Assembly (NCBI GenBank): GCA_024614665.1
Contig: GCA_024614665.1_4861.1
Origin: a phage
Length of the DNA: 64,000 bases
Direction: 5' to 3' (one strand)
A program made the translations under genes and the position numbers. Shown piece by piece: positions 5,305-31,710 of this stretch. Each line of letters opens with the position of its first letter. Within the stretch, counting starts at the first letter, position 1. The notes beneath the pieces are model-generated. The model ran no database searches, had not been told where the DNA came from, and was given only the letters and a program-made list of their open reading frames with translations.

Positions 5305-5318
5305 TAGATAATATCTGT
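5305..5318. promoter_or_regulatory. palindromic AGATAATATCT motif in divergent intergenic region
   Basis: Near-palindrome containing TAATAT/ATATTA hexamers 30-45 nt from both flanking start codons. Confidence 0.3.
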
Positions 5319-5347
5319 CTGAGTTCTTTTTGAGATGAGGTTATCCC

Positions 5348-5818
5348 ATGAGCGAAGAAGTGAAATACCAAGCGTTCGACGGAGATGTGGACAACGAAGA
5401 TTCGCTTCTCCGCCAAACACAACAGCTACGCGTTAAGCTCGTCACAGATATGGTTAACGACGGTGAAGTACACAAAGACTTAAAAGCCGTCGACCGAATC
5501 GAGCGCCTAATCAACGGCATCGACAAACAGGTCATGACGAAGCGGAAAATTAAAGCTGCTGAGAAAGGCGCTGAGGCGACTCAAGATTTGGCCAACAGTT
5601 TAAACGGCTTCTTAATGACCCGTGCAGGCGTTGGTATCAAACGTCACGACGATGAAGAAGATTTAAATAACGGATACCAACCCACCGTCCCACAGATTGC
5701 CGCAGTACGGCCTCCGAAAGAAGGTGAGTTGGCACCAGTAGGCGAAAAGATTGACGTTGACCAGATCATGGCATCTGCGTTTGCGAGTCGTCGTCCTGCT
5801 GATGACGACGAAGACTAA
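5348..5818 (+). CDS. hypothetical protein with acidic C-terminus (156 aa)
   Basis: ATG preceded by GAGG; ends PADDDED; convergent 53-nt overlap with next minus gene so one end may be mis-set. Confidence 0.4.
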   Translation: MSEEVKYQAFDGDVDNEDSLLRQTQQLRVKLVTDMVNDGEVHKDLKAVDRIERLINGIDKQVMTKRKIKAAEKGAEATQDLANSLNGFLMTRAGVGIKRHDDEEDLNNGYQPTVPQIAAVRPPKEGELAPVGEKIDVDQIMASAFASRRPADDDED

Positions 5819-6494
5819 ACAGCGCAGTGTCCTTTACGTCAGTACCGACGTATTGGGCAAGAAAACGGGTGGACTCCTTAAAGGGGTTCACCTTATCTCT
5901 TTTTATTTGCGCGATTGCTTCTTCCGTTAATTCGCTGGTCAGCATACTCGGTCGGGTAATCGTAAAATCCGGAATCGGTTTCTGGAAATGGCTCGCGTGT
6001 TGTTCTATCCACGGATACCAATCGTACATTATCCAACCATCCCATGCAGAAGCAAGTCGTCCTGGTGTAAGATCGCTGTGAGGAATAACAACGACGTCTA
6101 CTTGCACTTCGTTGTAGTAGTAGCGCAGTTCTTCCAAAAACGCATGACGTTCTTCATCATCGAGATCGGCGTATGGCCACAGGTTAAACGTTAAGACAGG
6201 TCGCTCGATAGGAGCGTGCATCTGTATCGTCATTAACATTGCCTGTACTTCGTTCTTTAGCGTAAGCAACATTTCTGTTGGCTGCGCGTTCTGCAACGCG
6301 CGTTTATCACGCTCCGCGAACTTTTTATTCCAGTCCTGAATTCCTACCACTTCGGCCCACGCATCCGTGAACCGCATCCGATACACTTCTAAATCAAGCT
6401 TCTCTAATACATCAGGCTGCAACACTTTCGCCCAACCAATTCGTGTATCGAAGATTGTGTCGATATCGACTAAGAAACGGCGTCCTAATCTCAT
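5766..6494 (-). CDS. hypothetical protein (242 aa)
   Basis: Long ORF; ATGA-type overlap with upstream gene. Confidence 0.45.
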   Translation of the reverse strand: MRLGRRFLVDIDTIFDTRIGWAKVLQPDVLEKLDLEVYRMRFTDAWAEVVGIQDWNKKFAERDKRALQNAQPTEMLLTLKNEVQAMLMTIQMHAPIERPVLTFNLWPYADLDDEERHAFLEELRYYYNEVQVDVVVIPHSDLTPGRLASAWDGWIMYDWYPWIEQHASHFQKPIPDFTITRPSMLTSELTEEAIAQIKRDKVNPFKESTRFLAQYVGTDVKDTALFSLRRHQQDDDSQTQMP

Positions 6495-7159
6495 TCCGGG
6501 CGTCCTAAGTTGTTACCGATGTGCATTGCTTTAAAGTACGAAGACCATGTACGCGGTGCTTTTGAACTGGTCCGCTCAGCCCCTTCCAGGTTGATGCGAC
6601 CTTTACCGGTTTGCCGTAGCGATTGATAGAACGCACGTTGTAACGTATCGTTACCACCACGCGCCCACAGGAACTCCTGGAGCGTTGAGTCGTGTCCATC
6701 CGAGTACATGATGTACGCTTCTGGAAACGAAACACCTGAAGCTTTGGAAGGCCCTACTACCTGACCTGAGAGTTTATCGCGGACTTTATCGTTCTTCGCC
6801 ACCGCCATTTTCTTCTCTTGCATCTGCGTCTGGCGACGTGCAGGTAAACGGAAGACTAAATGGGGGTAACGGGTACGCTGCAGGATACCGGTTTTCGGTT
6901 CCGTGAGCCACAGGCGCTGACACAAGTTCAGTCCCATCGCTTCGCAAATTTTAATATTGCGCATATGGTCAATTTTGACCTTGCCACCAGTTGGGTTGTA
7001 AACAGGCAACCCTTCGCGCAGACGATTGAACTCTTCGTCAGACATTCGCGAGAAAGCGCGCTTGGCAGCTTCCGCGTTAATCCCGGTCGGGTCAACTAAG
7101 TTCAGTAACTGTAAAGCATAAGCTTCTGCTTTTTTTCGCCGTGCCGGGTCTAATCTCAT
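6491..7159 (-). CDS. hypothetical protein (222 aa)
   Basis: Long ORF in operon-like array. Confidence 0.45.
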   Translation of the reverse strand: MRLDPARRKKAEAYALQLLNLVDPTGINAEAAKRAFSRMSDEEFNRLREGLPVYNPTGGKVKIDHMRNIKICEAMGLNLCQRLWLTEPKTGILQRTRYPHLVFRLPARRQTQMQEKKMAVAKNDKVRDKLSGQVVGPSKASGVSFPEAYIMYSDGHDSTLQEFLWARGGNDTLQRAFYQSLRQTGKGRINLEGAERTSSKAPRTWSSYFKAMHIGNNLGRPE

Positions 7160-7431
7160 TTTTTCATCCTCTCACGGAGCACTGGAAGAACCACACGTTC
7201 CAGGTCTTCAATCCAGTACGGGATATCTTCATTGTGTTCAGGCACACCGACCGCATCAACCTTCGGTTTATCATTAATCAGGTTGCCGTAGTGGGCATTT
7301 ACCTGATGACTAAATTCAGACAGTGCATGTCGCGGTGCTGAGAACTCGTTATGGAACGCAGTGCTAAGCTCCTGGCTAATGCCAGCGAGGCCCAGACAGA
7401 GACGCTCTACAATATCTTTCTGATAACGCAT
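7156..7431 (-). CDS. hypothetical protein (91 aa)
   Basis: Small ORF with 4-nt overlap to downstream gene. Confidence 0.35.
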   Translation of the reverse strand: MRYQKDIVERLCLGLAGISQELSTAFHNEFSAPRHALSEFSHQVNAHYGNLINDKPKVDAVGVPEHNEDIPYWIEDLERVVLPVLRERMKK

Positions 7432-7474
7432 CGCTAATCCTCAGGGGAAAACAGGCGGGTTGCCCCGCCCATGC

Positions 7475-8968
7475 TTATTTCTTCTTAGTCAAGAACTTCG
7501 GTTCCAGACCATCCACGGCCATCGCTAGTAATGACATTGCTGTTAAACAACGCTTACCACCTTTGACTTCCTGATCCTTGAACATCCAGTATTCCACCGT
7601 ATTGTCCAGAATTTCATTCCAGTCCCACTTTTCGTCGATAACCTTATAAAGCTCCGCCGGTGAGAGATGATATTTCATTTCCAGTCGGTGGTAGTTGTTC
7701 TGCATATACGCTAACGCAGCAGTGATTTCCAATGCCCTACGTAAACGCGGATTGCTGTCACACATGTCGCGAATCGTGGTACGCATGAAAGATGTACCAG
7801 GTAACAAATCGAGGGTATAATTAGCACCACTACGTTTGTAGCCCCATTCATCTTTCAGTGTGTCGCTCAGGTAATGCCACAGAGAGAGGTGATAAAGCAG
7901 ACCCATCTCCTGTGAGAAGACCATTTTGAACTTAACGCCTGTGTGACCACCTTTCGCACGGTACTGCGTGAAGACGATTTCTTTCAGGTCGTTTACCGAA
8001 GCATTCATCGCTTTTGAACGCGCAGTCGGGTATTTCTCTTCGTTTACACCGGTCTTCGCGTTGTAAGTCTGATCCTGCTTCAACTCACCAGACTTGGTTG
8101 CAACCAGCAGGGAGTTAGTTAAGAACGACAACTGACGACGCGGAATACCCGCAAACTTCAAATCATCGCCAGCATCGTCTAGCAGTTTACCGTTCGCTTT
8201 CGGTCCACCGCGACCGCCGGCAGCCATCGCCTTACCAGCATCGTCGGCCAGTTGAGCAACAAAGCCCATGTAGAAACCGCCACGCGCGAATGCAGATGGC
8301 CAACGACTCATCATGTTAGACTTTTGCAGCGCGTCGTGGGCGTTCAGGATGTTCTGTTCGGAGTCACCGACTTCTGATTTGGCATGTTTCTCTTCCAGAG
8401 AAGAGGTGTGCCATTCAGACAGGGAGTCAATCGAGTACAACCACGGGTCGAGAATCTTTTTCGCAGAGCGGCGAATTGGGTCCGGGAACGGCGTTTCGCG
8501 CGCTTTACCAGCCATATACTCTTTGAAACGTTTTTCGACTTCATCACGAATATAGGCAGAGTAATATTCTTCACCTGCCATGATATCCGAGCCAACCATG
8601 TTGTAACGACCTTCGTGGATCAGGTCCAGCACGCCGCCTGTTGGTGATACTTCTAATCCGTTTGCTTTCGCAGCGGAGATGTACCCCGTTTCCAGACGAC
8701 TTAATGCTGCCGTAACTTCGGTATCGTATTTCGATCCCCAGGCTGCATTATAACGTTGCAGAATCATGAAAATGCAGAAGTCTAATAAGGTAGACTTAAA
8801 AGTGTTCCCACGACCTGCGAAGCCCATGATGTGGGCAAAACCACCGTTGAGGTAGTACAAACCATCTTCCCCGCGCTCGTAGTTACCGAGAGCGTGGTCC
8901 ATGATGGTATATACGTTAAAACGAGGGCGAATTACTTCACCCATGACTTGTTTAGCTGGACCTGCCAT
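7475..8968 (-). CDS. putative RecA/UvsX-family recombinase-like ATPase (497 aa)
   Basis: N-terminal P-loop-like segment GFAGRGNTFKSTLLDFCIFMILQRY, which I recall resembles the T4 UvsX Walker A region (AGPSKSFKS...YMRQY); rest unassigned. Confidence 0.4.
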   Translation of the reverse strand: MAGPAKQVMGEVIRPRFNVYTIMDHALGNYERGEDGLYYLNGGFAHIMGFAGRGNTFKSTLLDFCIFMILQRYNAAWGSKYDTEVTAALSRLETGYISAAKANGLEVSPTGGVLDLIHEGRYNMVGSDIMAGEEYYSAYIRDEVEKRFKEYMAGKARETPFPDPIRRSAKKILDPWLYSIDSLSEWHTSSLEEKHAKSEVGDSEQNILNAHDALQKSNMMSRWPSAFARGGFYMGFVAQLADDAGKAMAAGGRGGPKANGKLLDDAGDDLKFAGIPRRQLSFLTNSLLVATKSGELKQDQTYNAKTGVNEEKYPTARSKAMNASVNDLKEIVFTQYRAKGGHTGVKFKMVFSQEMGLLYHLSLWHYLSDTLKDEWGYKRSGANYTLDLLPGTSFMRTTIRDMCDSNPRLRRALEITAALAYMQNNYHRLEMKYHLSPAELYKVIDEKWDWNEILDNTVEYWMFKDQEVKGGKRCLTAMSLLAMAVDGLEPKFLTKKK

Positions 8969-8983
8969 TTAGCGCTCCGTCAA

Positions 8984-9283
8984 TTAGCGTTTTTTCAGTG
9001 GGAGTAACAGACGACGTTTATGCCAAACTTCGAAATGCATTTCTGCCCACTCGGTGACTTGATTGTCATCCTTAGGATTGATGTTAGAAATGCTTTTGAA
9101 GCGGTTACGGTTACGTTCGTCGATTTCGATTTCTAGAACGCGCTTACCATCAGCACGAGTGGTCACGTTCAGGATTTTACCAACCACGATAGGACTACCA
9201 TCGGCATTCTTCTTCGTCGGGGTGGTGTAAATCTCAGGTTCGATACGAGAGGTTAAAGCACGAGTCAGTAATTTGATTCTCAT
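8984..9283 (-). CDS. hypothetical protein (99 aa)
   Basis: Small ORF directly upstream of the RecA-like gene on same strand. Confidence 0.4.
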   Translation of the reverse strand: MRIKLLTRALTSRIEPEIYTTPTKKNADGSPIVVGKILNVTTRADGKRVLEIEIDERNRNRFKSISNINPKDDNQVTEWAEMHFEVWHKRRLLLPLKKR

Positions 9284-9381
9284 CAGGTGTTACCTTTTTG
9301 CAGTTCTCGTACATAAGGTTTGGGTGATACGTAAAAGACTTACTATGTAGCCCAATCCCTTATATATTCGAGGTTGATAGA

Positions 9382-10137
9382 ATGAATGTTAATCCACTTG
9401 CAGCGTTGTCGGGCTTTGTTGCCAAAGCATCCACGATTCTGCCTAAAGCCTTTAGCGGCTCTCAACAGGAACTCGCGCTGACCACCTATGACGACATGTC
9501 TGATGTGTCCAAGTGGATGCAGCAAGAGAAGTTTTTAAACTTTACCGGAATGCTTGTACCCGTACCTCCGGGCTTCAACACGTATGTGATGGACCACATA
9601 GAACGGTTGGAATCTGTATGGGCTGTGCTCCAGAAGATTCAGGAAGGGGTTTTAACACCCATCGATAAACGTTTCGGTGCGATGACCCATGACCTGGGCA
9701 TGTTAACTCTGCCGATTGGGTTTAAGTTCAAAGACCTGAACTACCCGCTGAAAAATATCAATCCAAAAGATCTGGTTGAGAAACTGGCGAAGTCGTATAC
9801 CAACAACGTCATTGACCAGCGTCCGATTGAAAAGACCTACCACAGCGCAGGCGAGATCGATGTTGCATTTAATCGTGCCAAAGCGCTGAACCTGGAAGTG
9901 ACTAAGAAACTTCAGAAAAGTATTGACCGTACAGTTGAAAGCATCAATGTCTCTGTGGATATTATCTCTAATTCACAAGTCCATCCTAATGTGGCGGCAG
10001 AGTTAGTGAAAATGGCTGACATGGGTGCTGACTGGGTTGAGCTGTTCGGACTTTTTATGAAACAGATTAACGAACTGACAGAATGTCTGAACGTAACTGG
10101 TGATCGCCTCAAGACCCTGAAAGCAAACAAAAAATAA
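9382..10137 (+). CDS. hypothetical protein (251 aa)
   Basis: ATG start; followed by strong hairpin terminator at 10147-10188. Confidence 0.5.
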   Translation: MNVNPLAALSGFVAKASTILPKAFSGSQQELALTTYDDMSDVSKWMQQEKFLNFTGMLVPVPPGFNTYVMDHIERLESVWAVLQKIQEGVLTPIDKRFGAMTHDLGMLTLPIGFKFKDLNYPLKNINPKDLVEKLAKSYTNNVIDQRPIEKTYHSAGEIDVAFNRAKALNLEVTKKLQKSIDRTVESINVSVDIISNSQVHPNVAAELVKMADMGADWVELFGLFMKQINELTECLNVTGDRLKTLKANKK

Positions 10138-10146
10138 AACGTGATA

Positions 10147-10188
10147 CCTCCCACCTACCGTAACTGGTAGGTGGGAGGGTTTTATTTT
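10147..10188 (+). terminator. intrinsic terminator
   Basis: 13-bp GC-rich stem cctcccacctacc/ggtaggtgggagg then TTTTATTTT. Confidence 0.6.
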
Positions 10189-11110: not shown

Positions 11111-11130
11111 TTTAATACACCTTACGTAAA

Positions 11131-11142
11131 TAGTCGATTAAA
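11131..11142 (-). promoter_or_regulatory. conserved upstream motif AATCGACTAT (candidate promoter element)
   Basis: TTAATCGACTATTTACGTAAGG about 20 nt upstream of ATG at 11110; same motif recurs at three other gene starts. Confidence 0.3.
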
Positions 11143-11175
11143 AAATAAAACTGCGGACACCCCGAAGAGTGTCCG
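11140..11175 (-). terminator. intrinsic terminator
   Basis: cggacac/gtgtccg stem followed on minus strand by T-run. Confidence 0.45.
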
Positions 11176-11180
11176 TTTAA

Positions 11181-12259: not shown

Positions 12260-12269
12260 CTAATACTCC

Positions 12270-12677: not shown

Positions 12678-12687
12678 AGCGACCTCG

Positions 12688-13072: not shown

Positions 13073-13807
13073 TCAGTAGTTTAGCTTCTCAGAGACTTCT
13101 TTACGGATGCGACACATCACCACCATCGCACCATTCGGAATTTGGCTCACGCAGTTATCCGTGTAAAACTTACCTTCACACAGATAAAAGTCCAGACACA
13201 TGGCATCGGTCAGCTCGTGCCACAGGGTGCCGAAACCATACTGCCAAGGGCCGGAATGAACGACATCGTAATCGCCATCAGTTATGCCAAATGCGGCAGT
13301 AGCGGAAGACCACAGTGTTGAGGAGGTGGTATAAGTGTCATACCAGTAACCGAGCAGTCGATGGTTACGACGTATCTCAGCTAACCGCTCGTACATTGGG
13401 ATGAATACGTCCTCCACTTGCGTGACAAAATCAGCCAGCATCAACTTTTCCGTGAACCACTCGATCCACGCAAAGATTTGTTCTTCAACGTCTTGCTGGC
13501 TTAACCCCGTGGCAGTAATGCCTTCTTCGTAGGAGTAACCTTCGTAGACGTCAACAACATTAATCTCTACATGTTCTAGCGTGAACAACCGTTCGGTGTT
13601 GATGCAGTCGTACATCTCTTGTAACCACGCAGTGAAGACTTCTATACAGACGTTGATGGCTGTATACTTGAACTCGTCACGCAGAGGATACCACTGTGGG
13701 TTATCCTTTAGTTCGTTCTTCGCGAACGCGGGCCAATGCTTTTCGAACAACGCTTCAAAGAACTGGGGCGTGAGGTTTAAAAGCACTGGCACTTCGACTT
13801 TAAGCAT
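13073..13807 (-). CDS. hypothetical protein (244 aa)
   Basis: AAGGAG RBS before ATG; AGATATTATCT motif about 40 nt upstream. Confidence 0.5.
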   Translation of the reverse strand: MLKVEVPVLLNLTPQFFEALFEKHWPAFAKNELKDNPQWYPLRDEFKYTAINVCIEVFTAWLQEMYDCINTERLFTLEHVEINVVDVYEGYSYEEGITATGLSQQDVEEQIFAWIEWFTEKLMLADFVTQVEDVFIPMYERLAEIRRNHRLLGYWYDTYTTSSTLWSSATAAFGITDGDYDVVHSGPWQYGFGTLWHELTDAMCLDFYLCEGKFYTDNCVSQIPNGAMVVMCRIRKEVSEKLNY

Positions 13808-13840
13808 CGTGAATAAATTCTCCTTAAGGTTACGTCCCTG

Positions 13841-13855
13841 TAGATAATATCTATC
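13841..13855 (-). promoter_or_regulatory. AGATATTATCT motif upstream of gene 13073..13807
   Basis: Same motif as at 5305, about 40 nt upstream of ATG. Confidence 0.3.
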
Positions 13856-13860
13856 TCAGA

Positions 13861-22123: not shown

Positions 22124-22881
22124 AGCAGTGCTCCTTTCATGATGGTGTTATTTGCCAGTAATGTACCGGCCGCAGGTGATATTTTGGTGTACAGCGTATC
22201 CCAGATTTTCTGAAGTTCAGCGACGCGTTGGTCGTGGTCTTCCTTCGCAAAAGCAAGCTGACGTGTTTCAGCTTTCGGTGGCGTCATTTTCGCACCGTAG
22301 AATGCTGCGTCTTTTCGGTAACTGGCCATCCAGCGTTTCCCGACCGGTGATTTCTTTTTAATCATCGCAACAGCAGCACTCTCACCGAAGCGGTAGCCTA
22401 ATGCGATTTCGGCTGTGCTCGGCTTGCGTTTGAGTTGTTTCGTCAGATGATCCTCGATGTGTTTCATGTAAACAGCAGCAAGCTGTACAGCATATTTCGG
22501 TTTATTAAGGTCTGCGTTCTTTGGGATGTTAAGTTGTTTCCCATACAGACGTATCATGGAGCGTTTAGTGCCTGTCGTCATTTGGACAACACTACTAGCA
22601 CTGCTCGATTTATTCTTACCCACGTTTTTATTAAAACGGGATTCACGGTAAATAGTGGTCGCAAGCATCCCGGCGTGTACACCTTGCTTTTGAGATGCGG
22701 AGACGATGAGAGGTTTAATCTCATTGAACTGGTCCTGGATAAGGACAAATTCTTTTTGATGTTTGTTACTGGTGGACTGGTAAGAAGCGTTGCTGTTGAA
22801 TGTGGTCACTGCTACCAGAAGAAATAAAATGGTGCGAAACATGGATGTTCTCCAAATGGATTTATACTTTTCCGTTCCCAA
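22120..22881 (-). CDS. putative exported lytic transglycosylase-like (SLT-like) protein
   Basis: N-terminal hydrophobic signal (MFRTILFLLVAVTTF from internal ATG); ESRFN...SSVVQMT...GYRFG resembles SLT catalytic Glu-Ser region; start uncertain. Confidence 0.4.
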   Translation of the reverse strand: MGTEKYKSIWRTSMFRTILFLLVAVTTFNSNASYQSTSNKHQKEFVLIQDQFNEIKPLIVSASQKQGVHAGMLATTIYRESRFNKNVGKNKSSSASSVVQMTTGTKRSMIRLYGKQLNIPKNADLNKPKYAVQLAAVYMKHIEDHLTKQLKRKPSTAEIALGYRFGESAAVAMIKKKSPVGKRWMASYRKDAAFYGAKMTPPKAETRQLAFAKEDHDQRVAELQKIWDTLYTKISPAAGTLLANNTIMKGALL

Positions 22882-22929
22882 TCCGGGAAGACGGCGCGGA
22901 CGGCATTGTGCTCCTTTGTAATGTGCCCT

Positions 22930-22944
22930 GATAATAATATCTAT
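22930..22944 (-). promoter_or_regulatory. AGATATTATTATC motif upstream of gene 22120..22881
   Basis: Related motif about 50 nt upstream of start. Confidence 0.25.
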
Positions 22945-23441
22945 TTGAAACTTTTTGGGATGATTTTCTCTGCTTCCCTCAGCAGGGTGTCTGGTAAATA
23001 GAATCGATAAGTCTGCTCCGTGTGCTGTAGTCGTTTCTGTAAGTGTATAAAGATTTCCAATCGCTCATGGTAACGTAACCAACCGTTAGCCATCCCTAGG
23101 GGCGGTATCGCAATCCCTCCTTCTAAGTCTTCCCCTAGTCGCGCCAGCGCATCAATGCCGGACGTGACATAGTAAATCTGCGATTTATAGCGAAAATGGG
23201 TTTTAGTAGGAAGGAGTATTACCCCTTCCTCAGGATAACAATAGACCTCACCGATAACGATTTGCTCTTTACGACATTTCTGGCGATAGTCGTTATAAAG
23301 CGATGGGAAGCGTTCTCGGCACGCCAAGGCAATGCCCCTTCCCATCGCACCAACACAGTTAACTGTAACGACCTTGAAGCGCTCAGGCGCGTTAAACAGG
23401 TCGTGGGAGATAATAGCCTCGTCGATCAGTTCGAGTGACAT
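22941..23441 (-). CDS. macrodomain protein, TARG1/DarG-like (166 aa)
   Basis: KVVTVNCVGAMGRGIALACRERFP and IAIPPLGMANGWL match the NCxGxMGxGIA / GxxNG pattern I recall for TARG1/DarG-type macrodomains. Confidence 0.5.
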   Translation of the reverse strand: MSLELIDEAIISHDLFNAPERFKVVTVNCVGAMGRGIALACRERFPSLYNDYRQKCRKEQIVIGEVYCYPEEGVILLPTKTHFRYKSQIYYVTSGIDALARLGEDLEGGIAIPPLGMANGWLRYHERLEIFIHLQKRLQHTEQTYRFYLPDTLLREAEKIIPKSFK

Positions 23442-24338: not shown

Positions 24339-24363
24339 AATCGTAAGGAGTGCTAAAACAGGA

Positions 24364-25277: not shown

Positions 25278-25390
25278 TTCGTAATTACCCTCCTGTTAAA
25301 ACCAACCTTGCGTCAATGCAAGGATTGCGCCTAGGGCGTATGCGCCTGCTCCTAGTATCAGGCTACAGACGATACACCCAATCCATTTCA

Positions 25391-25522: not shown

Positions 25523-25709
25523 AAGCCGGGTCCCTTAAACGTGGGGGCTTGCTCCACAGATTACCGAAGTAAACCCCTTCTAAGAACACCAAAACAACTA
25601 ATCCCCAAAAGGCAGGCGTGGCACGAGACAAGAAAATACCCAGCAGCACCGCAGTGTGCATTACCACAACTGCCCAAAACTTTAAACGTCGCGGTTTACG
25701 TGTTGCCAT
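25506..25709 (-). CDS. small membrane protein (about 67 aa)
   Basis: Start at internal ATG (MATRKPRRLKFWAVVVMHTAVLLGIF) with AAAGGA upstream; one TM helix. Confidence 0.35.
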   Translation of the reverse strand: MATRKPRRLKFWAVVVMHTAVLLGIFLSRATPAFWGLVVLVFLEGVYFGNLWSKPPRLRDPAYDSRE

Positions 25710-25796
25710 GGAATGCCCATCCTTTCGTGCGGATAATCCAATCCCAGGCACCACGAATTAACCACAGCGCAATACCGGTTAGTACAATACCTTCGA

Positions 25797-25988
25797 TCAT
25801 GACCGTTCCCCTACATCTCGCCACTCACAACGTGTGTCGAACAGACGTTCTTTAAGAGCAGCAGCTAAATAAACAACCGCAGCGATAACCACTACGGTTG
25901 CACAAAAGGAGAGGTACAGTACCATCACAACAAACTGAAGGAACTGAAAACCCCACCAAGCCCATAAGCGCCAACCTTTATGATGCAT
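25797..25988 (-). CDS. small membrane protein (63 aa)
   Basis: Trp-rich hydrophobic N-terminus and second helix VVVIAAVVYLAAAL. Confidence 0.35.
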   Translation of the reverse strand: MHHKGWRLWAWWGFQFLQFVVMVLYLSFCATVVVIAAVVYLAAALKERLFDTRCEWRDVGERS

Positions 25989-28488
25989 ATTTGATTATTA
26001 CCCCTTCGTTATAAACCGGTGGAAGCGTTACACCTTCTGGCTCGACGACACAGTAGGTGGCTTCGTTAAGTTTAGAATGAACTTCCGCTTCATGCGAAAC
26101 GACCAGTAATTGAGAAAACTCTCCCGACAACGCCAACGATTTAATGAAGTTAACTAATCGGTTTTTGTGTTCTTCATCCATGCCTTCAGATGGTTCATCC
26201 AATAACAAAGGATAGTTTTGTAAACCAAGCGCTTTATACGCCGTTAAACGAAACATCATGTTAAAGATAATACGCTGTGCTTTTGAACCTTTCTTCACAT
26301 CCGGTACCAGTTCTACATGGTCTTTTAATCGCACAGGGAACGTGTAGTCCAGATCCCCGTCGGTTAGATCGCACGGAATAACCTGCATCGGATATGCCCA
26401 CACCATTTCGATATACCGATTCATTAAATCCATGATGCGGGTAATCGCAGCGTAGAAGTAACGTCTCAGTAAACCTTTTTCAGGAGAAACCGCATTAATA
26501 ATCAGTCTGGCATGGTGGTGTTCTTTGAGCAACTCAGCTTGCTCTTTTTCCAGTTCCGCTAAACGTGCAATAGCCCCTTCCATTTGACGAAACCGTTCAC
26601 GAGCTGAAGTATACGCATCGAGCTTCGCTTCGCGGCGGTTTAACAACTCACGAACTACGACGTTGTTAACGGAGATGTTCATTTCCGATACCAGATGTTC
26701 GTAGCCCTTTTGGAAACGTTCGATTGCTTCTTTGGTTTGTTGCAGTTGGGTGGTTTCGCGTTCCAGCTCATTGGCTTGTCTGCGGTATTCTATCAGTCGA
26801 CGGTTAGCCCCGTCTAGTTGTGAACGGATATGTTCAATTTTCTGGCTCAGAGCACCATCAACATTACCTACTGCGGCAACAGCCTCTTGCCATTCCCGTT
26901 CCGCTGTTGCAAGCTTCGCTGATTGACGCAGATACATCATGGCCGAATCTAACTCTTCGGTAAAGGCACGTGCAATGGCACCATATCGATCCCGCGCCGT
27001 GGTGAAGATATCCAGCTCCTGTAGTTTACGGAAAAACAAACCGACAACGGGATGATTGGAATACGACATGACAATTTCGCGAATCGTACGTAGGCTACGG
27101 ACGTCCTCTTCAATCTCTTTGCGGTCACGCAAAAGACTATCCATTTCGTCTTTCAGCTGTTTTTTCCAACCTTCATTATCGTTGATGGCCTTTTCAATTT
27201 CAGGTAACGACTTACGAATCCCAGGACGGAAACGGTGGTTACACTGTGGACAATCAACTTCTGCAGTTTCTAAGAAGTGTTGACGGTCGTGGTATAAACC
27301 GTGTAGCACATTCTCACAACGTTGCAACTTTTCAGATAGACCCGCAGAGGTTAAATCCATACCCTGTAAACGCTTCTCTAACGCTCCTAGGCGCTCTGTT
27401 GTCTTTAACTGGTCCAGATGCATGGACAACGGTAAATTCCAGTTACAGGCGTCGTTTAACGCGTTCTGAATGCTATCCACGTCGATGCGGGTACCTTCAA
27501 ACAGAGCCGGGAACATCCAGTTCTGTTGGAACGTTGCCAGTTCCTGTTTTAAGCTGTCGATTGTTTGTTTTAGACCGGTATGGTTACGCATCAGATACGC
27601 TTGACGCGACTCCTCATCCAGTAGCTGTGACAACTCTTTATTGTACATGTTGCATTCAGTTTCAGCGGAGGCAGCTTGCTCACGCCAGGCAACCACACGA
27701 CTTTGAAACTCGTTAATCAGTTCGTCAGAAGGCAGAACGCCATAACGTTCCATAATGAGTTTTACAGCCGGTTGCAACGAAGCAATGCGTTTCCGGATAC
27801 TGTCAACCGAAACAGCGTTATCTAAACCGGGCCTTGCTTCAATTGTGCGGTTTAATTCTTGAAGCTCAGCATCGAGTTCTTTCAAACGAACTTCTAAACG
27901 TGCACGATCTTCTTCATCGTCAACGACGCGCATTTTTGCTTCGCCGATTTTTCGTCCGGTGTGTTCGATGGCCCCGCTTAAACTGGAAGCGAGTTTACGC
28001 AAACGTCGATAGCAGCCAACAACGTACGTCAGATCAGATTCTGACATTAACGTAAACCATTTACGACGAACTTCGGTAGTGGCGTCAGTTAATAAGGTCT
28101 CACCATTAATTAACTCTTTGATTTCTTTGGTGATTCCGGTTAATTGCTCCACCATGGAGTTGTAAACTTTGGCGTTTACCGAGTCCACAATGGGGACGCC
28201 TTTGGTGATATTGAAAATACTACAAGACAAAGAAGACCCACGTCGCAGGACTTCAAACTTAAGACGGTCGTCCCCGACTAACGCGTAGTTAGTGTAAGAA
28301 CCACCTTCACGGAATTCAGATTTTGCTGGAGCTAAGGGGAGAAAAACAGATAGGAGGCTTGTTTTACCGCAACCATTCCCACCAAGGATAATGGTAACGG
28401 TTGATTTAAGGGTGAAATCAAACGTTTCGATTTCATGTAACCCCATGCCGGTAAATCCTTTCAAAATGATACGTTCGACCTTGAGCAT
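25978..28488 (-). CDS. SbcC/Rad50-like recombination ATPase (836 aa)
   Basis: N-terminal Walker A GGNGCGKTS; long central coiled coil with CPQC hook-like motif; C-terminal LLLDEPSEGMD Walker B and VVSHE. Confidence 0.7.
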   Translation of the reverse strand: MLKVERIILKGFTGMGLHEIETFDFTLKSTVTIILGGNGCGKTSLLSVFLPLAPAKSEFREGGSYTNYALVGDDRLKFEVLRRGSSLSCSIFNITKGVPIVDSVNAKVYNSMVEQLTGITKEIKELINGETLLTDATTEVRRKWFTLMSESDLTYVVGCYRRLRKLASSLSGAIEHTGRKIGEAKMRVVDDEEDRARLEVRLKELDAELQELNRTIEARPGLDNAVSVDSIRKRIASLQPAVKLIMERYGVLPSDELINEFQSRVVAWREQAASAETECNMYNKELSQLLDEESRQAYLMRNHTGLKQTIDSLKQELATFQQNWMFPALFEGTRIDVDSIQNALNDACNWNLPLSMHLDQLKTTERLGALEKRLQGMDLTSAGLSEKLQRCENVLHGLYHDRQHFLETAEVDCPQCNHRFRPGIRKSLPEIEKAINDNEGWKKQLKDEMDSLLRDRKEIEEDVRSLRTIREIVMSYSNHPVVGLFFRKLQELDIFTTARDRYGAIARAFTEELDSAMMYLRQSAKLATAEREWQEAVAAVGNVDGALSQKIEHIRSQLDGANRRLIEYRRQANELERETTQLQQTKEAIERFQKGYEHLVSEMNISVNNVVVRELLNRREAKLDAYTSARERFRQMEGAIARLAELEKEQAELLKEHHHARLIINAVSPEKGLLRRYFYAAITRIMDLMNRYIEMVWAYPMQVIPCDLTDGDLDYTFPVRLKDHVELVPDVKKGSKAQRIIFNMMFRLTAYKALGLQNYPLLLDEPSEGMDEEHKNRLVNFIKSLALSGEFSQLLVVSHEAEVHSKLNEATYCVVEPEGVTLPPVYNEGVIIKYAS

Positions 28489-28541
28489 GTTTGCCTTCTA
28501 ATGAGAAAGTATTAGTCGTTCATATCCAAAAGGTCATGCGT

Positions 28542-28573
28542 AAAAAAGAAGAAATGGAACCCCGAAGGGTTCC
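28542..28573 (-). terminator. intrinsic terminator
   Basis: ggaaccc-cgaa-gggttcc followed on minus strand by T-run. Confidence 0.5.
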
Positions 28574-28584
28574 AGAGAGGAGAG

Positions 28585-29211
28585 TTATTGCGGAATAAAC
28601 TTACGGTGTCCGAGTGATTCCCAAAAACTATCGGTGCGCTCTTTGGTTAATTCATACCACGCACGCCCGGCATCAGAATCGACAACCTTTAACGTTTCAG
28701 TAAGCAGGAATTTGAACAGTTCAGCGCTACGACCGGGTGCTACACCGTCGAGATATATCGGAATTAAATAACCGGTTTTGATTTCTTCGTACGGTTGCGA
28801 TTGGTGCTGACCAACAACCCAGGCGTCAGCCGCGCTACCGACCAAAGTGGTGTTTACAGTTAACTCATCAGAAATCCAGTTAACGGTATCAGCCATTATT
28901 GAATCGCCATTGACGTAGAAGAAAACTAAACGTTTAGGTTGCTCCACCGAACCGGCCAAATCTAATGCAGTAGTTCCGGTGAAGATCGTATTATTGGGAT
29001 TACGTTCTGCAATAGGTAGAGCAAACCACGCTTCGAGCTGTTCCCAGCTACGCGGCAGTGCTTCTTTAAACCACTTCACCAATCGCGGGTATTCCAGAAA
29101 CCCTTCTACCTCTTCTTCCATCAGATTGATACGCAGTTTGGTATCCTGACGATTCGCTTTCTGACATGTCACCATGTCATCGATGAAACGAATCAGGGTA
29201 ATTTCGTTCAT
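28585..29211 (-). CDS. hypothetical protein (208 aa)
   Basis: Intact ORF followed by terminator hairpin; no phosphoesterase motifs. Confidence 0.45.
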   Translation of the reverse strand: MNEITLIRFIDDMVTCQKANRQDTKLRINLMEEEVEGFLEYPRLVKWFKEALPRSWEQLEAWFALPIAERNPNNTIFTGTTALDLAGSVEQPKRLVFFYVNGDSIMADTVNWISDELTVNTTLVGSAADAWVVGQHQSQPYEEIKTGYLIPIYLDGVAPGRSAELFKFLLTETLKVVDSDAGRAWYELTKERTDSFWESLGHRKFIPQ

Positions 29212-29228
29212 GTTTAATCCTTCTTCAA

Positions 29229-29256
29229 CAAAAAAAGAAGGTAGCCCGTAGGCTAC
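29229..29256 (-). terminator. intrinsic terminator
   Basis: ggtagcc-cgta-ggctacc followed on minus strand by T-run. Confidence 0.5.
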
Positions 29257-29265
29257 CTCTCGTAT

Positions 29266-29766
29266 TTACAGCCCCATATGCATAAGGGAAATGATAGGGA
29301 CTTTTCGGCCACGTATCATTGCATACGGTTCGTACATTTGTGCGTTAGTTTCGAATAACTCACAGGCCGGAATACGATCGCCGGTAGAGAGTTGTAAGAC
29401 TTCGATTTGGTCGCCCCAGAAGTTATTCACTAATACGTGGTCGACAGTGTTGTCTTCACGACCTTCAGGGGTTTTGCAATAAGTGGCGGCATCGTACCAA
29501 CCTTTGCGGTATACTTCATAACCCGCGTGAAGCATCCGGTAGTACGGACGCAGTTGTGGGGCATTCAACGCAGCATCTAGCCACTCGCTGTGAATGCTGT
29601 TAATCAACACGGTCGCTTCTTCTGGCCACTCGCTGCGGTTTAGGGTTAACTCGCCTAACAGCTTTAACTTCCAGCCAGTGGAAAGAATAGCGCGGGTACG
29701 TTCTGGATTGACGTTCATCTGAGTAAAGAAAGTAGAACGAGTATCGTCAAGAATGTTCATGTTCAT
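29266..29766 (-). CDS. hypothetical protein (about 166 aa)
   Basis: Start at ATG (MNMNILDD) with AAGGA RBS, preceded by AATCGACTAT motif and hairpin. Confidence 0.45.
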   Translation of the reverse strand: MNMNILDDTRSTFFTQMNVNPERTRAILSTGWKLKLLGELTLNRSEWPEEATVLINSIHSEWLDAALNAPQLRPYYRMLHAGYEVYRKGWYDAATYCKTPEGREDNTVDHVLVNNFWGDQIEVLQLSTGDRIPACELFETNAQMYEPYAMIRGRKVPIISLMHMGL

Positions 29767-29785
29767 TTGCTTAGTCCTTACGAGT

Positions 29786-29796
29786 AATAGTCGATT
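29786..29796 (-). promoter_or_regulatory. conserved upstream motif AATCGACTAT (candidate promoter element)
   Basis: TTAATCGACTATTACTCGTAAGG upstream of ATG at 29766, nearly identical to the 11131 copy. Confidence 0.3.
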
Positions 29797-29895
29797 AAAA
29801 AGGACCCTGCGGCTATGTGTTGGGGATATCACCGCAGGGCCAAAGTGAGATGGGTCGTCATCTCACGTTATAACATCTGTCTGAAAACTTTTCGG

Positions 29896-30279
29896 TTACT
29901 GGTCGAGCGCTACTGAACCACGCACCACTCCTTGCTGTTCAATAACCAGGAGGCGTTGTTTGGTTTTCGTATTGTAAGCGAGCGACGCGCGAAGCGTCGG
30001 GTCGCACGTTATTGTCTCTACTGGCACAATCTCTTGTGCCTTTGAGTTCAACAAAAAGTAGTAACCTGCCGGACAAGTTTCCTCGCCCTTTGCGTGGACC
30101 AGGATGTACTCGTCGTGCCGGCTGACTTCTTCACATCTACCATCATCCCCAGTACAGACTTCGAACGAAGGCGGGTTGTACTGATACGGTGTGCCTGGTA
30201 GTAAATCTTCTACGCTAGTTGTAGCTGAAGCAGAAGCGGTAAAGAACACCGCCACGATAATACCCATAAATCCACGCAT
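29896..30279 (-). CDS. secreted small protein with conserved Cys (127 aa)
   Basis: Signal peptide MRGFMGIIVAVFFTASASA; 4 Cys in mature part. Confidence 0.45.
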   Translation of the reverse strand: MRGFMGIIVAVFFTASASATTSVEDLLPGTPYQYNPPSFEVCTGDDGRCEEVSRHDEYILVHAKGEETCPAGYYFLLNSKAQEIVPVETITCDPTLRASLAYNTKTKQRLLVIEQQGVVRGSVALDQ

Positions 30280-30292
30280 GTTGTTTCCTTAC

Positions 30293-30703
30293 TTAAAAGT
30301 CGAGTTTATTGATGCCTACGTTTTTCTTAATCGTAGGGTCATACATGATAACCGTCAGGGCATTATCACCTGGGTCGCGAGTAAACTCAGCAACGGCTTC
30401 ACCACTGCAGGCCTGGTTATCATTATAGTTCATGGTTTCGGCTTGCCCGGTTGCCATGTTAATAACCCCGTATTCCGGGTCGCCACATGCGACGCCGCCC
30501 ATCGTTTTCACTAACAGGTAACGGTTGTTATCGGACATCGCAACGATCTGGCAGCTACCGCCTTGTACGTCAGAGTTCTGGCACCAGAACTGGCCGCCGT
30601 ATTCGTGATCGTTAACAACTTTTGGTAACTCGATACTTCCAGCACGAGCGAAGAAGCTAATGGCCAGAGTAGCAAGTAAAACTGGTAATAAAAAATGTTT
30701 CAT
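30293..30703 (-). CDS. secreted small protein with conserved Cys (136 aa)
   Basis: Signal peptide MKHFLLPVLLATLAISFFARA; about 5 Cys in mature part. Confidence 0.45.
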   Translation of the reverse strand: MKHFLLPVLLATLAISFFARAGSIELPKVVNDHEYGGQFWCQNSDVQGGSCQIVAMSDNNRYLLVKTMGGVACGDPEYGVINMATGQAETMNYNDNQACSGEAVAEFTRDPGDNALTVIMYDPTIKKNVGINKLDF

Positions 30704-30725
30704 AATAGCACCTCAATTTTTTGAG

Positions 30726-31217
30726 TTATTCTGAATAGTCGATTGTTTTGATAGTTTCCATACCGTAGTACATAGCGATGGAGGCCAGAGTTTTGGTATC
30801 CGGTCGCTGTACAAAACCGGCCCTGAAATCTTTGCTGCAAATTTTCTCCACTGATAGTTCATCACGATTAGGGATAAGCCATAACGCGTCACCGTTGTGA
30901 CGGTCGACTGCACCCCACCAACCACCTGGGCAATCTTTATCGCCCGGACGGTGTACGATAGCGACACGTCCGTTGAAGGATATGTCAACTACACGACACT
31001 GTTTCTTAAGCAGCTTACGCGCATTGCACCAGAACGGCTTATCATTAAGATTGATGGTGCGGGTATATGCTGGAATGCTGCCGTTAATACTGCCCTGGAA
31101 CCCGCTGAATTCGTCAGCGCGTGCCTTAGAAATCCGTAGCCCAACAACAAGTGCCATCAACAGCACAGTAAAAAGCACCACTTTGGCCAAGTGGCGATTA
31201 ACGTTATTGCATTTCAT
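30726..31217 (-). CDS. secreted or membrane-anchored small protein (about 163 aa)
   Basis: Start at ATG with GGAG RBS; hydrophobic N-terminus HLAKVVLFTVLLMALVVGL; 4 Cys. Confidence 0.4.
   Translation of the reverse strand: MKCNNVNRHLAKVVLFTVLLMALVVGLRISKARADEFSGFQGSINGSIPAYTRTINLNDKPFWCNARKLLKKQCRVVDISFNGRVAIVHRPGDKDCPGGWWGAVDRHNGDALWLIPNRDELSVEKICSKDFRAGFVQRPDTKTLASIAMYYGMETIKTIDYSE
30734..30744 (-). promoter_or_regulatory. conserved upstream motif AATCGACTAT (candidate promoter element)
   Basis: CAATCGACTATTCAG about 30 nt upstream of ATG at 30703, inside 3' end of upstream gene. Confidence 0.25.
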
Positions 31218-31605
31218 TTTTAATATCTCCACGATTAAGGGTGATGCGACCGACGAGCACATCGTTGTGATAAAAACTCACAGCAACCAGATCTGGCAAT
31301 TCCAACGGCGATACACTGACCGAGGTGACTTTTGGTTGATTGCACGATATGTCGATTAATCGCTGATACATTTTCAATTTCTTATCAGCGATAACCAGCC
31401 CTGTGCAGTTCTTACCGTCCGTCAGTCTGTAGATTTGTAACTGTTCGACCTCACGCATCAGTTCCGGTTTTTCATTCGGTGCAATGGCATAATCCGAATC
31501 AGCTGATGTGTATTCAGTCACGTCTGGCTTATCGAAAGCATAAGTTGCTGCAATACCACATGCGGCCAGAACTACTACTGCTTGTAAGAACTTCTTGATA
31601 GTCAT
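31204..31605 (-). CDS. putative lipoprotein (133 aa)
   Basis: MTIKKFLQAVVVLAACG = signal peptide + lipobox LAAC; AATCGACTAT motif 12 nt upstream. Confidence 0.45.
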   Translation of the reverse strand: MTIKKFLQAVVVLAACGIAATYAFDKPDVTEYTSADSDYAIAPNEKPELMREVEQLQIYRLTDGKNCTGLVIADKKLKMYQRLIDISCNQPKVTSVSVSPLELPDLVAVSFYHNDVLVGRITLNRGDIKNEMQ

Positions 31606-31614
31606 GTTTTGCTC

Positions 31615-31625
31615 TATAGTCGATT
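31615..31625 (-). promoter_or_regulatory. conserved upstream motif AATCGACTAT (candidate promoter element)
   Basis: CCAATCGACTATAGAG 12 nt upstream of ATG at 31605, just after terminator hairpin. Confidence 0.25.
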
Positions 31626-31630
31626 GGTTT

Positions 31631-31659
31631 AAAAAAGAATAGGCTACCCGAGGGTAGCC
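31631..31659 (-). terminator. intrinsic terminator
   Basis: ggctaccc-gag-ggtagcc followed on minus strand by T-run, then AATCGACTAT motif and gene start. Confidence 0.55.
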
Positions 31660-31710
31660 AGTTGAGTTAATCTCTTAACTCTCACCTAGGTAATATATAT
31701 CTGAGATATT

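What the first reader, a model, noticed from the sequence alone, without database searches (positions are those of the whole stretch)
5305..31705. Second recurrent palindromic element AGATA(A)TATCT 30-50 nt upstream of start codons
Seen: ATAGATAATATCTG (5305-5318, divergent region), TAGATAATATCTATC (13841-13855), GATAATAATATCTAT (22930-22944), TAATATATATCTGAG (31691-31705). Each contains a TATTAT/ATAATA -10-like hexamer inside a near-palindrome. Inference: a family of host-sigma70-type promoters with an operator-like palindrome, possibly bidirectional at 5305.
Basis: partly seen in the sequence, partly recalled or inferred. Interest (0 to 1): 0.4.

Follow-up and report, generated by a model that had tools for sequence, protein, structure and literature searches.

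The report
Jumbo-phage early promoters, not host promoters
The recurring AT-rich near-palindrome is real, but it is the SPN3US-group version of the known early-promoter motif that phiKZ-like giant phages use with their own injected RNA polymerase, so it is ordinary for this kind of phage.

Summary
The four quoted sequences are at the stated coordinates, and the recurrence is far above chance. The window is a SPN3US-type jumbo Salmonella phage (Seoulvirus).

The informative strand is the minus strand, which is the coding strand here. Read there, the element is a ~28-nt oriented motif, TTTC-AGATAkATATTAyCT-nn-GTGAG. The closely related complete genome SaP7 has 23 clear minus-strand copies plus that weak copy.

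- Almost all copies are intergenic and co-oriented with the downstream gene.
- None has a -35 hexamer.
- The S1 core is invariant across three phage genera while its flanks drift.
- The consensus matches the published predicted early promoters of OBP and N1M2 and contains the phiKZ early core TATATTAC.
- A matrix built from this phage finds the mapped early promoter of phiKZ gene 054.
- One SaP7 copy sits directly upstream of a non-virion RNA polymerase subunit gene.

Best explanation: these are early promoters read by the virion-packaged phage RNA polymerase, starting at the conserved GTGAG. Host sigma-70 recognition and an operator role are not supported. Bidirectional use at 5305 is possible but unproven. 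Novelty is low.

The parts
5297..5331 (-). S1, an early-promoter motif in a 76-bp divergent intergenic region: AAAAAGAACTC-AGACAGATATTATCT-atcc-GAG. Predicted start near G5301, giving a ~30-nt leader to the ATG at 5271. The mirror reading on the + strand (5302-5323) lies ~27 nt before the ATG at 5348.
   Evidence: Sequence. Independent matrix: 28.3 bits on the minus strand, 23.2 bits for the mirror. 26 consecutive invariant positions (5306-5331) plus GAG (5299-5301) across 7 phages of 3 genera.
13833..13860 (-). S2, an early-promoter motif: tctg-AGATAGATATTATCT-acaGGGAC. It starts 3 nt after the stop codon of the upstream minus-strand gene. Predicted start near 13837, giving a ~30-nt leader to the ATG at 13807.
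   Evidence: 25.0 bits. Conserved at the orthologous position in Erwinia phage Asesino, L007 28906.
22923..22950 (-). S3, a weaker early-promoter motif: tttc-AAATAGATATTATTATCAGGGCAC. It overlaps the stop codon of the upstream gene and is followed by an ~85-nt leader to the SLT transglycosylase gene (ATG at 22842).
   Evidence: 16.3 bits. Orthologue in Asesino at L007 37733. SLT domain.
29859..29886 (-). S5, a weak or degenerate copy: tttc-AGACAGATGTTATAAC-GTGAGATG.
   Evidence: 0 mismatches to CAGAYAGATRTTAT. Only 8.6-12.7 bits by the matrices. No orthologous hit in Asesino.
31679..31706 (-). S4, the best copy in the window and a member of the 'class B' subfamily: tctc-AGATATATATTACCT-ag-GTGAGAG. 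It contains the phiKZ core TATATTAC. Predicted start near 31683.
   Evidence: 37.5 bits. 1 mismatch to the literature-derived pattern. In distant Erwinia phages only this ~31-50-nt segment of the region finds matches.
35447..35474 (-). It lies ~93 nt upstream of the 412-aa gene 34120-35358.
   Evidence: 30.7 bits. Probable orthologue in Asesino at L007 48902.
31630..31683 (-). Leader module after S4: a 5' hairpin (31681-31664), then a terminator-like hairpin (31659-31642) with a T-run. It precedes the AATCGACTAT box and the gene start at 31605.
   Evidence: Fold -21.2 kcal/mol, z -4.35. Terminator scan. Conserved in pEa_SNUABM_29 with an A-to-G change that keeps a G.U pair.
29797..29866 (-). 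Leader module after S5: a 5' hairpin (29866-29845), then a long hairpin (29841-29804) with a U-run, followed by the AATCGACTAT box (29787-29796).
   Evidence: Fold -32.7 kcal/mol, z -6.43.
6491..7159 (-). Gene for the beta-C subunit of the virion RNA polymerase (SPN3US gp218, 222 aa). This polymerase is the enzyme proposed to read the motif.
   Evidence: phrog_3233 'RNA polymerase beta subunit', E 9e-94. gp218 is 222 aa and was detected in virions as vRNAP beta-C (PMC5105663).

Best explanation
The element is the early-promoter motif of a SPN3US-type, phiKZ-like jumbo phage. It is an oriented ~28-bp sequence on the minus strand: TTTC-AGATA(G/T)ATATTA(T/C)CT-nn-GTGAG.

Proposed mechanism: the multisubunit RNA polymerase packaged in the virion and injected with the DNA recognises the motif without host sigma-70. 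It initiates at or next to the conserved G/A of GTGAG, about 10 nt downstream of the centre of the AT-rich core.

The transcripts run into minus-strand operons of small genes of unknown function. In the sister genome one such transcript would run into a non-virion RNA polymerase subunit gene.

The partial dyad symmetry is a by-product of the AT-rich core, not the selected feature.

Shown here: the motif, its copy number, orientation, intergenic placement, cross-genus conservation, similarity to published early promoters, and the lack of sigma-70 features.

Inferred: which polymerase reads it, the early timing, and the exact start site.
For: 1. The window is a SPN3US-type phage: 98.7% identical to SaP7 over 12 kb, and 100% identical to SPN3US across S1. 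It carries the vRNAP beta-C gene gp218.
2. Census of the full SaP7 genome gives 23 minus-strand copies at 23.8 bits or more and nothing else on that strand above 10 bits. No independent plus-strand copy exceeds 11.4 bits.
3. About 20 of the 23 sites lie outside greedy-called ORFs, in a genome that is ~95% ORF-covered.
4. Copy number is like phiKZ (28-32) and N1M2 (31).
5. An independent matrix (26.9 bits) finds 5 sites in the window, against 0.075 expected at 15 bits or more.
6. A degenerate pattern merged from the published OBP, N1M2 and 201phi2-1 consensus finds 3 window sites against 0.01 expected.
7. The published consensus sequences are N1M2 TTTCARRYAKATATTATYWAAGTG, OBP TTTYARRYAKATATTATYWWADTG and phiKZ TATATTAC (PMC7058600). 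The consensus here is TTTCAGATAGATATTATCTTAGTGAG.
8. The SaP7-derived matrix scores 21.0 bits at phiKZ 45563, upstream of PHIKZ054. Wicke 2021 reports an early-promoter motif with a primary start site for that gene.
9. Footprint at S1: 26 invariant positions across Seoulvirus, Erskinevirus and Machinavirus while the flanks vary. S2, S3 and S6 are also kept in Asesino.
10. SaP7 copy 135822 is 45 nt upstream of a protein matching phiKZ nvRNAP subunit gp71 (7OGP chain C, E 3e-29). nvRNAP genes are early genes in phiKZ.
11. No copy directly precedes a gene annotated as virion structural. The 20-kb plus-strand block of large genes at 38.7-57.4 kb has no copy.
12. Start-site inference: the reviews place the AT-rich core at about -10 and a T-rich element upstream of -19. 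With the start at G20 of the motif, TTTC falls at -23 to -20. About 11 of 24 copies then begin with a hairpin whose 5' arm is GAGAG.
13. Those hairpins are more stable in the minus-sense RNA than in the complement: mean -2.1 kcal/mol, G.U pairs in 6 of 11, Wilcoxon p 0.03.
Against: - I found no 5'-end mapping, time course or rifampicin data for any SPN3US-group phage in the held literature. Polymerase, timing and start site rest on homology with phiKZ.
- The OBP and N1M2 motifs are themselves only predictions.
- Three window copies (S4, S5, S6) lie upstream of a terminator-like hairpin rather than downstream of it. This is unusual for a simple operon promoter.
- One copy precedes a lytic transglycosylase gene, not an obviously early function.
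- S5 is weak and not conserved.
Confidence: 0.85

Rival explanations
1. Host sigma-70 promoters with an operator-like palindrome. Salmonella RNA polymerase holoenzyme would use TATTAT as a -10 element.
For: Each site contains a TATTAT- or TAATAT-like hexamer with A at position 2 and T at position 6. The sites sit upstream of genes.
Against: - No -35 match at a 16-18-nt spacing and no TG extension.
- None of the six sites is called by the sigma-70 scan, and such calls are at chance level (18 vs 21.0; 15 vs 14.3).
- Information content is high at positions a sigma-70 promoter does not constrain: AGATA upstream, CT, and GTGAG at the start.
- The same motif occurs in phages of Pseudomonas, Klebsiella and Erwinia.
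- phiKZ-type infection is rifampicin-resistant.
Confidence: 0.04
2. Promoters of the non-virion phage RNA polymerase (middle or late class) rather than of the virion enzyme.
For: The temporal class is untested in this phage group. One copy precedes a transglycosylase gene, and two lie just downstream of capsid or tail genes.
Against: - The motif matches the phiKZ early consensus, not the middle one (weak AT-rich at -24, or TACT at -22) or the late one (TATG at the start).
- A copy directly precedes an nvRNAP subunit gene, which must be expressed before that enzyme exists.
- No copy directly precedes a gene annotated as virion structural.
Confidence: 0.06
3. The dyad symmetry is functional. It would serve either as the binding site of a dimeric phage regulator that shuts early promoters off (a Cro/C1-type HTH protein is encoded downstream of one copy), or to let the promoter fire in both directions at divergent junctions such as 5297-5331. 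This would add to, not replace, the promoter role.
For: - The consensus has 7 of 10 symmetric pairs around T10.
- The two best opposite-strand scores in the genome (21.4-22.9 and 19.7-21.0 bits) are both in short divergent regions, 28-32 nt from a plus-strand ATG.
- The upstream half of S1, which would be the leader of the plus-strand gene, is invariant across three genera, although those positions are only weakly constrained in the family.
- An HTH gene lies downstream of SaP7 copy 71364.
Against: - Class B copies break two symmetric pairs (G6 to T, T13 to C) without compensation, yet they are the highest-scoring copies.
- Three other copies in divergent regions have poor mirror scores (3.3, -0.4, 10.1).
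- The chance that the top two of 24 fall among the 6 divergent-context sites is about 0.05, which is marginal.
- Every copy scores better in the direction of the minus-strand gene.
Confidence: 0.2

Closest known systems
phiKZ early promoters (core TATATTAC, read by the virion RNA polymerase; Ceyssens 2014 and Wicke 2021 as cited in PMC8244752 and PMC7598289)
   Same: - An AT-rich ~10-nt core at about -10, with a T-rich element upstream of -19.
- Intergenic, co-oriented with genes, about 25-30 copies per genome.
- Class B copies here contain TATATTAC exactly.
- The matrix from this phage scores 21.0 bits at the PHIKZ054 early promoter.
   Different: - The motif here is longer and more tightly conserved, with AGATA upstream and GTGAG at the predicted start.
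- About 40% of copies have G/T13 variants (AGATAGATATTATCT) that create a 5+5 palindrome.
- The hosts are enterobacteria.
- There is no experimental mapping in this phage group.
Predicted early promoters of Pseudomonas phage OBP and Klebsiella phage N1M2 (TTTCARRYAKATATTATYWAAGTG; PMC7058600 Table 2)
   Same: The consensus is almost position-for-position identical, including TTTC, the KATATTAT core and the downstream GTG. The copy number (31) and the kinds of downstream genes are similar: an RNAP beta subunit, a lytic transglycosylase, and genes of unknown function.
   Different: They belong to different genera with little DNA similarity. Both sets are bioinformatic predictions only.
Bacterial sigma-70 -10 element and extended -10 promoters
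   Same: A TATAAT-like hexamer (TATTAT) sits ~7 nt upstream of the predicted start.
   Different: There is no -35 and no TG. The conserved flanks are unrelated to sigma-70 contacts. The sites are not enriched over chance as sigma-70 sites.
phiKZ promoter-proximal (5'UTR) terminators that yield short RNAs of ~71 and ~141 nt (Putzeys 2024, PMC10914365)
   Same: S4 and S5 are followed within 50-70 nt by a hairpin plus a terminator-like hairpin and U-run, ahead of the gene. This is the arrangement reported for phiKZ P112/T102.
   Different: No RNA data exist here. The terminator might simply belong to the upstream gene.
T4-type 'promoter-early stem-loop' cassettes (recalled from memory, Arbiol et al. 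2010; not checked here)
   Same: Repeated early-promoter plus stem-loop modules are scattered between small early genes. In distant relatives only the ~31-50-nt promoter segment of the S4 region matches, at 2-3 places per genome.
   Different: The T4 cassettes use host sigma-70. Mobility or recombination of the modules here was not tested.

Membership tests
Early (virion-RNAP) promoters of phiKZ-like jumbo phages | An AT-rich ~10-nt core matching TATATTAC / KATATTAT | tested here: met
   The consensus from 18 independent copies is TTTCAGATAGATATTATCTTAGTGAGAG. Class B copies contain TATATTAC. The literature-derived pattern gives 3 hits against 0.01 expected.
Early (virion-RNAP) promoters of phiKZ-like jumbo phages | A T-rich element upstream of about -19 | tested here: met
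   TTTC lies immediately 5' of AGATA (0.6-0.8 bits per position), preceded by A/T-rich sequence. The position fits -23 to -20 if the start is at G20.
Early (virion-RNAP) promoters of phiKZ-like jumbo phages | Intergenic, co-oriented with the downstream gene, tens of copies per genome, absent from late structural operons | tested here: met
   23 of 23 strong copies are on the coding (minus) strand, and about 20 lie outside called ORFs. None directly precedes a gene annotated as structural.
Early (virion-RNAP) promoters of phiKZ-like jumbo phages | The genome encodes a virion-packaged multisubunit RNA polymerase and a second, non-virion one | tested here: met
   Window 6491-7159 is gp218, vRNAP beta-C. 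An nvRNAP gp71 homologue is present in SaP7. RNAP subunit annotations appear.
Early (virion-RNAP) promoters of phiKZ-like jumbo phages | The motif from this phage recognises an experimentally mapped early promoter of phiKZ | tested here: met
   21.0 bits at phiKZ 45563, 85 nt upstream of the PHIKZ054 ATG. An early motif with a primary start site is reported for PHIKZ054. I could not obtain the exact mapped coordinate.
Early (virion-RNAP) promoters of phiKZ-like jumbo phages | Primary 5' ends ~10 nt downstream of the core centre in the first minutes of infection | not testable with these tools
   No transcript data for SPN3US-group phages were found.
Early (virion-RNAP) promoters of phiKZ-like jumbo phages | Transcription independent of host RNAP (rifampicin) and of new protein synthesis | not testable with these tools
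   This is known for phiKZ and AR9 only.
Sigma-70 promoters | A -35 hexamer (TTGACA-like) 16-18 nt upstream of the -10, or a TG extension | tested here: not met
   None of the six sites is called on either strand. No TG precedes the hexamer.
Sigma-70 promoters | A -10 hexamer with A2 and T6 | tested here: met
   TATTAT or TATTAC is present within the core.
Dyad-symmetric operator | Symmetric arms kept across copies, by compensation where they change, and no orientation preference | tested here: not met
   Class B copies lose two symmetric pairs without compensation. All copies share one orientation relative to the downstream gene.

The most novel reading that the evidence does not exclude
Some early promoters may do more than start operons.

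(a) At S4 and S5, and more weakly at S6, the promoter is followed within 50-95 nt by a 5' hairpin and a terminator-like hairpin. The injected polymerase would then make abundant ~52-nt and ~70-nt structured early RNAs, or be subject to conditional read-through that gates the downstream gene.

(b) The near-perfect dyad at 5299-5323 may let one site fire in both directions in the divergent region.

Neither reading is excluded by my evidence.
Probability: 0.25. Interest if true: 0.4.

Novelty: already known. Interest (0 to 1): 0.15.

Why it matters
Practically, recognising these sites gives a ready map of the early transcription units of SPN3US-type phages: 24 sites per genome and 5-6 in this window. 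SPN3US-type phages are used as a genetic model and as Salmonella biocontrol agents.

It also corrects the assumption that these sites depend on host sigma-70. That matters for anyone designing reporter constructs or engineering these phages.

The near-identity of the motif in Salmonella, Erwinia, Klebsiella and Pseudomonas phages shows that promoter recognition by the virion polymerase is very conserved. This is useful for structural work on that still-unpurified enzyme.

As a discovery it is minor, because the kind of element is already described.

Tried and rejected
**Papers and data I could not obtain**
- Lavysh 2016, the AR9 genome paper cited for motifs 'in each jumbo phage'.
- Ceyssens 2014.
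- Cornelissen 2012.
- Supplementary start-site tables of Wicke 2021 and Putzeys 2024, which are not held. As a result I could not transfer an exact mapped start coordinate from phiKZ.

**Searches that found nothing**
- Literature searches for a published SPN3US promoter list or transcriptome.
- Rfam at gathering thresholds found nothing in the window.

**Tests that did not support a lead**
- I tested whether the 617-aa gene behind two tandem SaP7 copies is the nuclear-shell protein. It has no PDB sequence match and the PHROG has no known function, so this is unsupported.
- Sigma-70 scans gave only chance-level calls, none at the sites.
- The first iterated matrix absorbed mirror-image plus-strand hits. 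I rebuilt it from minus-strand sites only.
- The 5' hairpin is not universal: about 11 of 24 copies, mean z only -0.7.
- WTTTACGTW is not enriched (5 vs 3.56), so I dropped it as a motif.
- AATCGACTAT with 1 mismatch is not enriched in the window (6 vs 3.74). However, the 4 exact copies are all minus-strand and just upstream of start codons, so I keep it as an unexplained side observation.


Full report
**Observation.** The element recurs more than chance allows. AGATATTATCTA with up to two mismatches gives 12 matches against 3.69 expected, and no shuffle out of 100 reaches 12. Two descriptive details hold for only half the sites. The strict palindrome AGATA-N-TATCT is at 5305 and 13841 only. 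The '30-50 nt upstream of start codons' spacing also applies only to those two. The sites at 22930 and 31691 lie about 90-100 nt from the annotated starts.

**What the window is.** The window is a SPN3US-type jumbo Salmonella phage (genus Seoulvirus). It is 98.7% identical to phage SaP7 over 12 kb and 100% identical to SPN3US across the first site. Between 1 and 36 kb nearly all genes are on the minus strand. The sites must therefore be read as reverse complements.

**Anatomy.** On the minus strand the four sites align over about 28 nt, not 11: TTTC-AGATA(G/T)ATATTA(T/C)CT-nn-GTGAG. Pattern and matrix searches add a strong fifth copy at 35447-35474 and a weak sixth at 29859-29886. Each copy starts just after, or overlapping, the stop codon of the upstream minus-strand gene.

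**Genome census.**
- I assembled the whole SaP7 genome and scanned it with a matrix built from the minus-strand copies. This gives 23 minus-strand copies scoring 23.8-40.3 bits and nothing else on that strand above 10 bits.
- The plus strand has only nine hits of 10-22.9 bits. Six are mirror images of minus-strand copies, and the three independent ones score 11.4 bits or less.
- About 20 of the 23 sites lie outside ORFs, although roughly 95% of the genome is ORF-covered.
- Two subclasses are visible. Class A is AGATAGATATTATCT, which carries the 5+5 palindrome. Class B is AGATATATATTACCTAGGTGAGAG, which does not.

**Independent statistics for the window.**
- A matrix made only from the 18 SaP7 copies that lie outside the window (26.9 bits of information) scores the window sites at 28.3, 25.0, 16.3, 37.5 and 30.7 bits. 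Markov-simulated windows give 0.075 hits of at least 15 bits and none of at least 20 bits.
- A degenerate pattern merged from consensus sequences published for other phages finds three of the sites, against 0.01 expected.

**Conservation.**
- The divergent intergenic region holding the first site was aligned for seven phages of three genera (Seoulvirus, Erskinevirus, Machinavirus).
- It shows 26 consecutive invariant positions, AAAAAGAACTCAGACAGATATTATCT (5306-5331). Four variable positions follow, then an invariant GAG (5299-5301). The rest of the spacer and the adjoining coding ends vary.
- Erwinia phage Asesino, about 74-76% identical to the window here, keeps copies at the positions orthologous to 13856, 22946 and probably 35470.
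- A blastn of the 31.7-kb region against distant Erwinia phages matches only the ~31-50-nt promoter segment, at two or three places per genome.

**Comparison with known promoters.**
- A paper on Klebsiella jumbo phage N1M2 tabulates predicted early promoters: N1M2 TBYAWWWWWTTTCARRYAKATATTATYWAAGTGWA, OBP ...TTTYARRYAKATATTATYWWADTG, 201phi2-1 ...TATATTACDWHDGTG, and phiKZ TATATTAC (PMC7058600). The consensus here agrees with the OBP and N1M2 motifs almost position for position. Class B copies contain the phiKZ core.
- A review states that every RNAP-encoding jumbo phage has such a motif upstream of presumed early operons. It describes the motif as a ~10-nt AT-rich block centred near -10, and says it proved to be the early-promoter consensus wherever transcripts were mapped (PMC7598289).
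- For phiKZ the mapped motif is an extended -10 box plus a T-rich element upstream of -19 (PMC8244752).
- As a direct test I scanned the first 50 kb of phiKZ with the SaP7 matrix. The best hit (21.0 bits) is the TATATTAC site 85 nt upstream of the nuclear-shell gene PHIKZ054. That paper reports an early motif with a primary start site for this gene. All seven TATATTAC copies in that stretch are on the coding strand.

**Mechanism.**
- SPN3US packages a five-subunit RNA polymerase in its head, and the beta-N subunit gp241 is essential (PMC5105663). The window itself encodes the beta-C subunit gp218 at 6491-7159.
- In phiKZ the injected enzyme transcribes early genes, including those of the second, non-virion polymerase, without host polymerase or new protein synthesis.
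- Consistent with this, one SaP7 copy lies 45 nt upstream of a homologue of phiKZ nvRNAP subunit gp71 (E 3e-29).
- The genes downstream of the window copies are PHROG families of unknown function plus an SLT transglycosylase. The N1M2 paper lists the same kinds of targets.
- I therefore conclude that these are early promoters of the virion polymerase.
- The start site is inferred. Placing the AT-rich core centre at -10 puts +1 on the conserved G/A of GTGAG and puts TTTC at -23 to -20, as described for phiKZ. This gives leaders of about 30 nt at 5301 and 13837, and of 78-97 nt at the other sites.

**Rivals.**
- Host sigma-70: there is no -35 and no TG, none of the sites is called by the scan, and such calls are at chance level. 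The conserved positions also extend beyond what sigma-70 contacts.
- Non-virion polymerase: the phiKZ middle and late motifs are different, and a copy precedes an nvRNAP gene.
- Operator: the dyad is lost without compensation in class B, and all copies are oriented.
- Bidirectional use at 5305 remains open. With leave-one-out matrices the two best mirror scores in the genome (21.4 and 19.7 bits) belong to this site and to one other site in a divergent region, each ~30 nt from a plus-strand ATG. Three other divergent sites have poor mirror scores, and the association is marginal (about 0.05).

**Surroundings.**
- About 11 of 24 copies are followed at once by a hairpin whose 5' arm is the conserved GAGAG. 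These hairpins are more stable in the minus-sense RNA than in the complement and use G.U pairs.
- At 31683-31630 and 29866-29797 the hairpin is followed by a terminator-like hairpin and a U-run before the gene (z -4.35 and -6.43).
- The first of these modules is conserved in Erwinia phage pEa_SNUABM_29, with a change that keeps a G.U pair.
- The arrangement resembles the promoter-proximal terminators and short RNAs described in phiKZ (PMC10914365).
- A second box, AATCGACTAT, lies 20-41 nt upstream of several minus-strand start codons. Its role is unknown.

**Verdict.**
- The promoter idea is right.
- The host-polymerase and operator ideas are not supported.
- The element belongs to a well-described class.
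- I found no published site list for SPN3US itself in the held literature. I could not read the paper cited for 'each jumbo phage'.
- At most, then, this is a new listing of members of a known kind.

Noticed in passing
window 31630-31683 (-) and 29797-29866 (-); weaker at 35392-35453 (-): The predicted early promoters are followed by a 5' hairpin, then a terminator-like hairpin with a U-run, all before the gene. This predicts ~52-nt and ~70-nt structured RNAs or conditional read-through (fold z -4.35 and -6.43). The first module is conserved in Erwinia phage pEa_SNUABM_29 with a G.U-preserving change. A similar arrangement is reported for phiKZ 5'UTR terminators.
   Followed up: partly
window 11130-11139, 29787-29796, 30735-30744, 31616-31625 (all -): There are four exact copies of AATCGACTAT, all on the minus strand and 20-41 nt upstream of minus-strand start codons. 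About 0.1 copies would be expected for a 10-mer. In the SaP7 genome there are 22 minus-strand vs 6 plus-strand copies at up to 1 mismatch, and 13 of them lie 20-31 nt from an ATG, often just 5' of the ribosome-binding site and after class B promoters. It may be a second promoter class or an mRNA element; the function is unknown.
   Followed up: partly
window 6491-7159 (-): This 222-aa ORF is the beta-C subunit of the virion RNA polymerase (SPN3US gp218; phrog_3233). Some records annotate it only as 'virion structural protein 22'.
   Followed up: yes
window 5299-5323 (+): Read on the plus strand, the S1 dyad plus the following TTCTTTTT is flagged as a terminator-like hairpin (11 pairs). It lies just upstream of the plus-strand gene 5348-5818. 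A chance-level sigma-70-like match (TTTAAA-17-TATTAT, 5260-5288) sits upstream of it.
   Followed up: no
window 22862-22906 (-): A 14-codon upstream ORF (ATG at 22906, with AAGGAG 5 nt before it) lies in the ~85-nt leader of the SLT transglycosylase gene. The ATG is CTG in Erwinia phage Asesino, so it is probably not a conserved coding feature. The surrounding leader sequence is conserved.
   Followed up: partly
SaP7 (L005) around record positions 150489 and 150582; SaP7 139565: Two tandem motif copies precede a 617-aa gene of unknown function (phrog_8316; no PDB match). One full-strength copy lies inside a 544-aa gene, 280 nt upstream of the next gene.
   Followed up: partly
SaP7 (L003) record 70928-71293, downstream of copy 71364: A Cro/C1-type helix-turn-helix protein (HTH_3) is encoded directly behind one of the best class B promoters. 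It is a candidate regulator, untested.
   Followed up: no
window intergenic regions, e.g. 10147-10178, 11154-11175, 28555-28574, 32346-32372, 34093-34109: GC-rich hairpins with T-runs (often with CTTCGG/CGAAGG-type loops) are enriched over shuffles in 22.0-36.5 kb (31 vs 14.1; only 13 vs 8.8 in 4.5-14.5 kb). They mark most gene-cluster ends and usually sit just upstream of the promoter motif.
   Followed up: no
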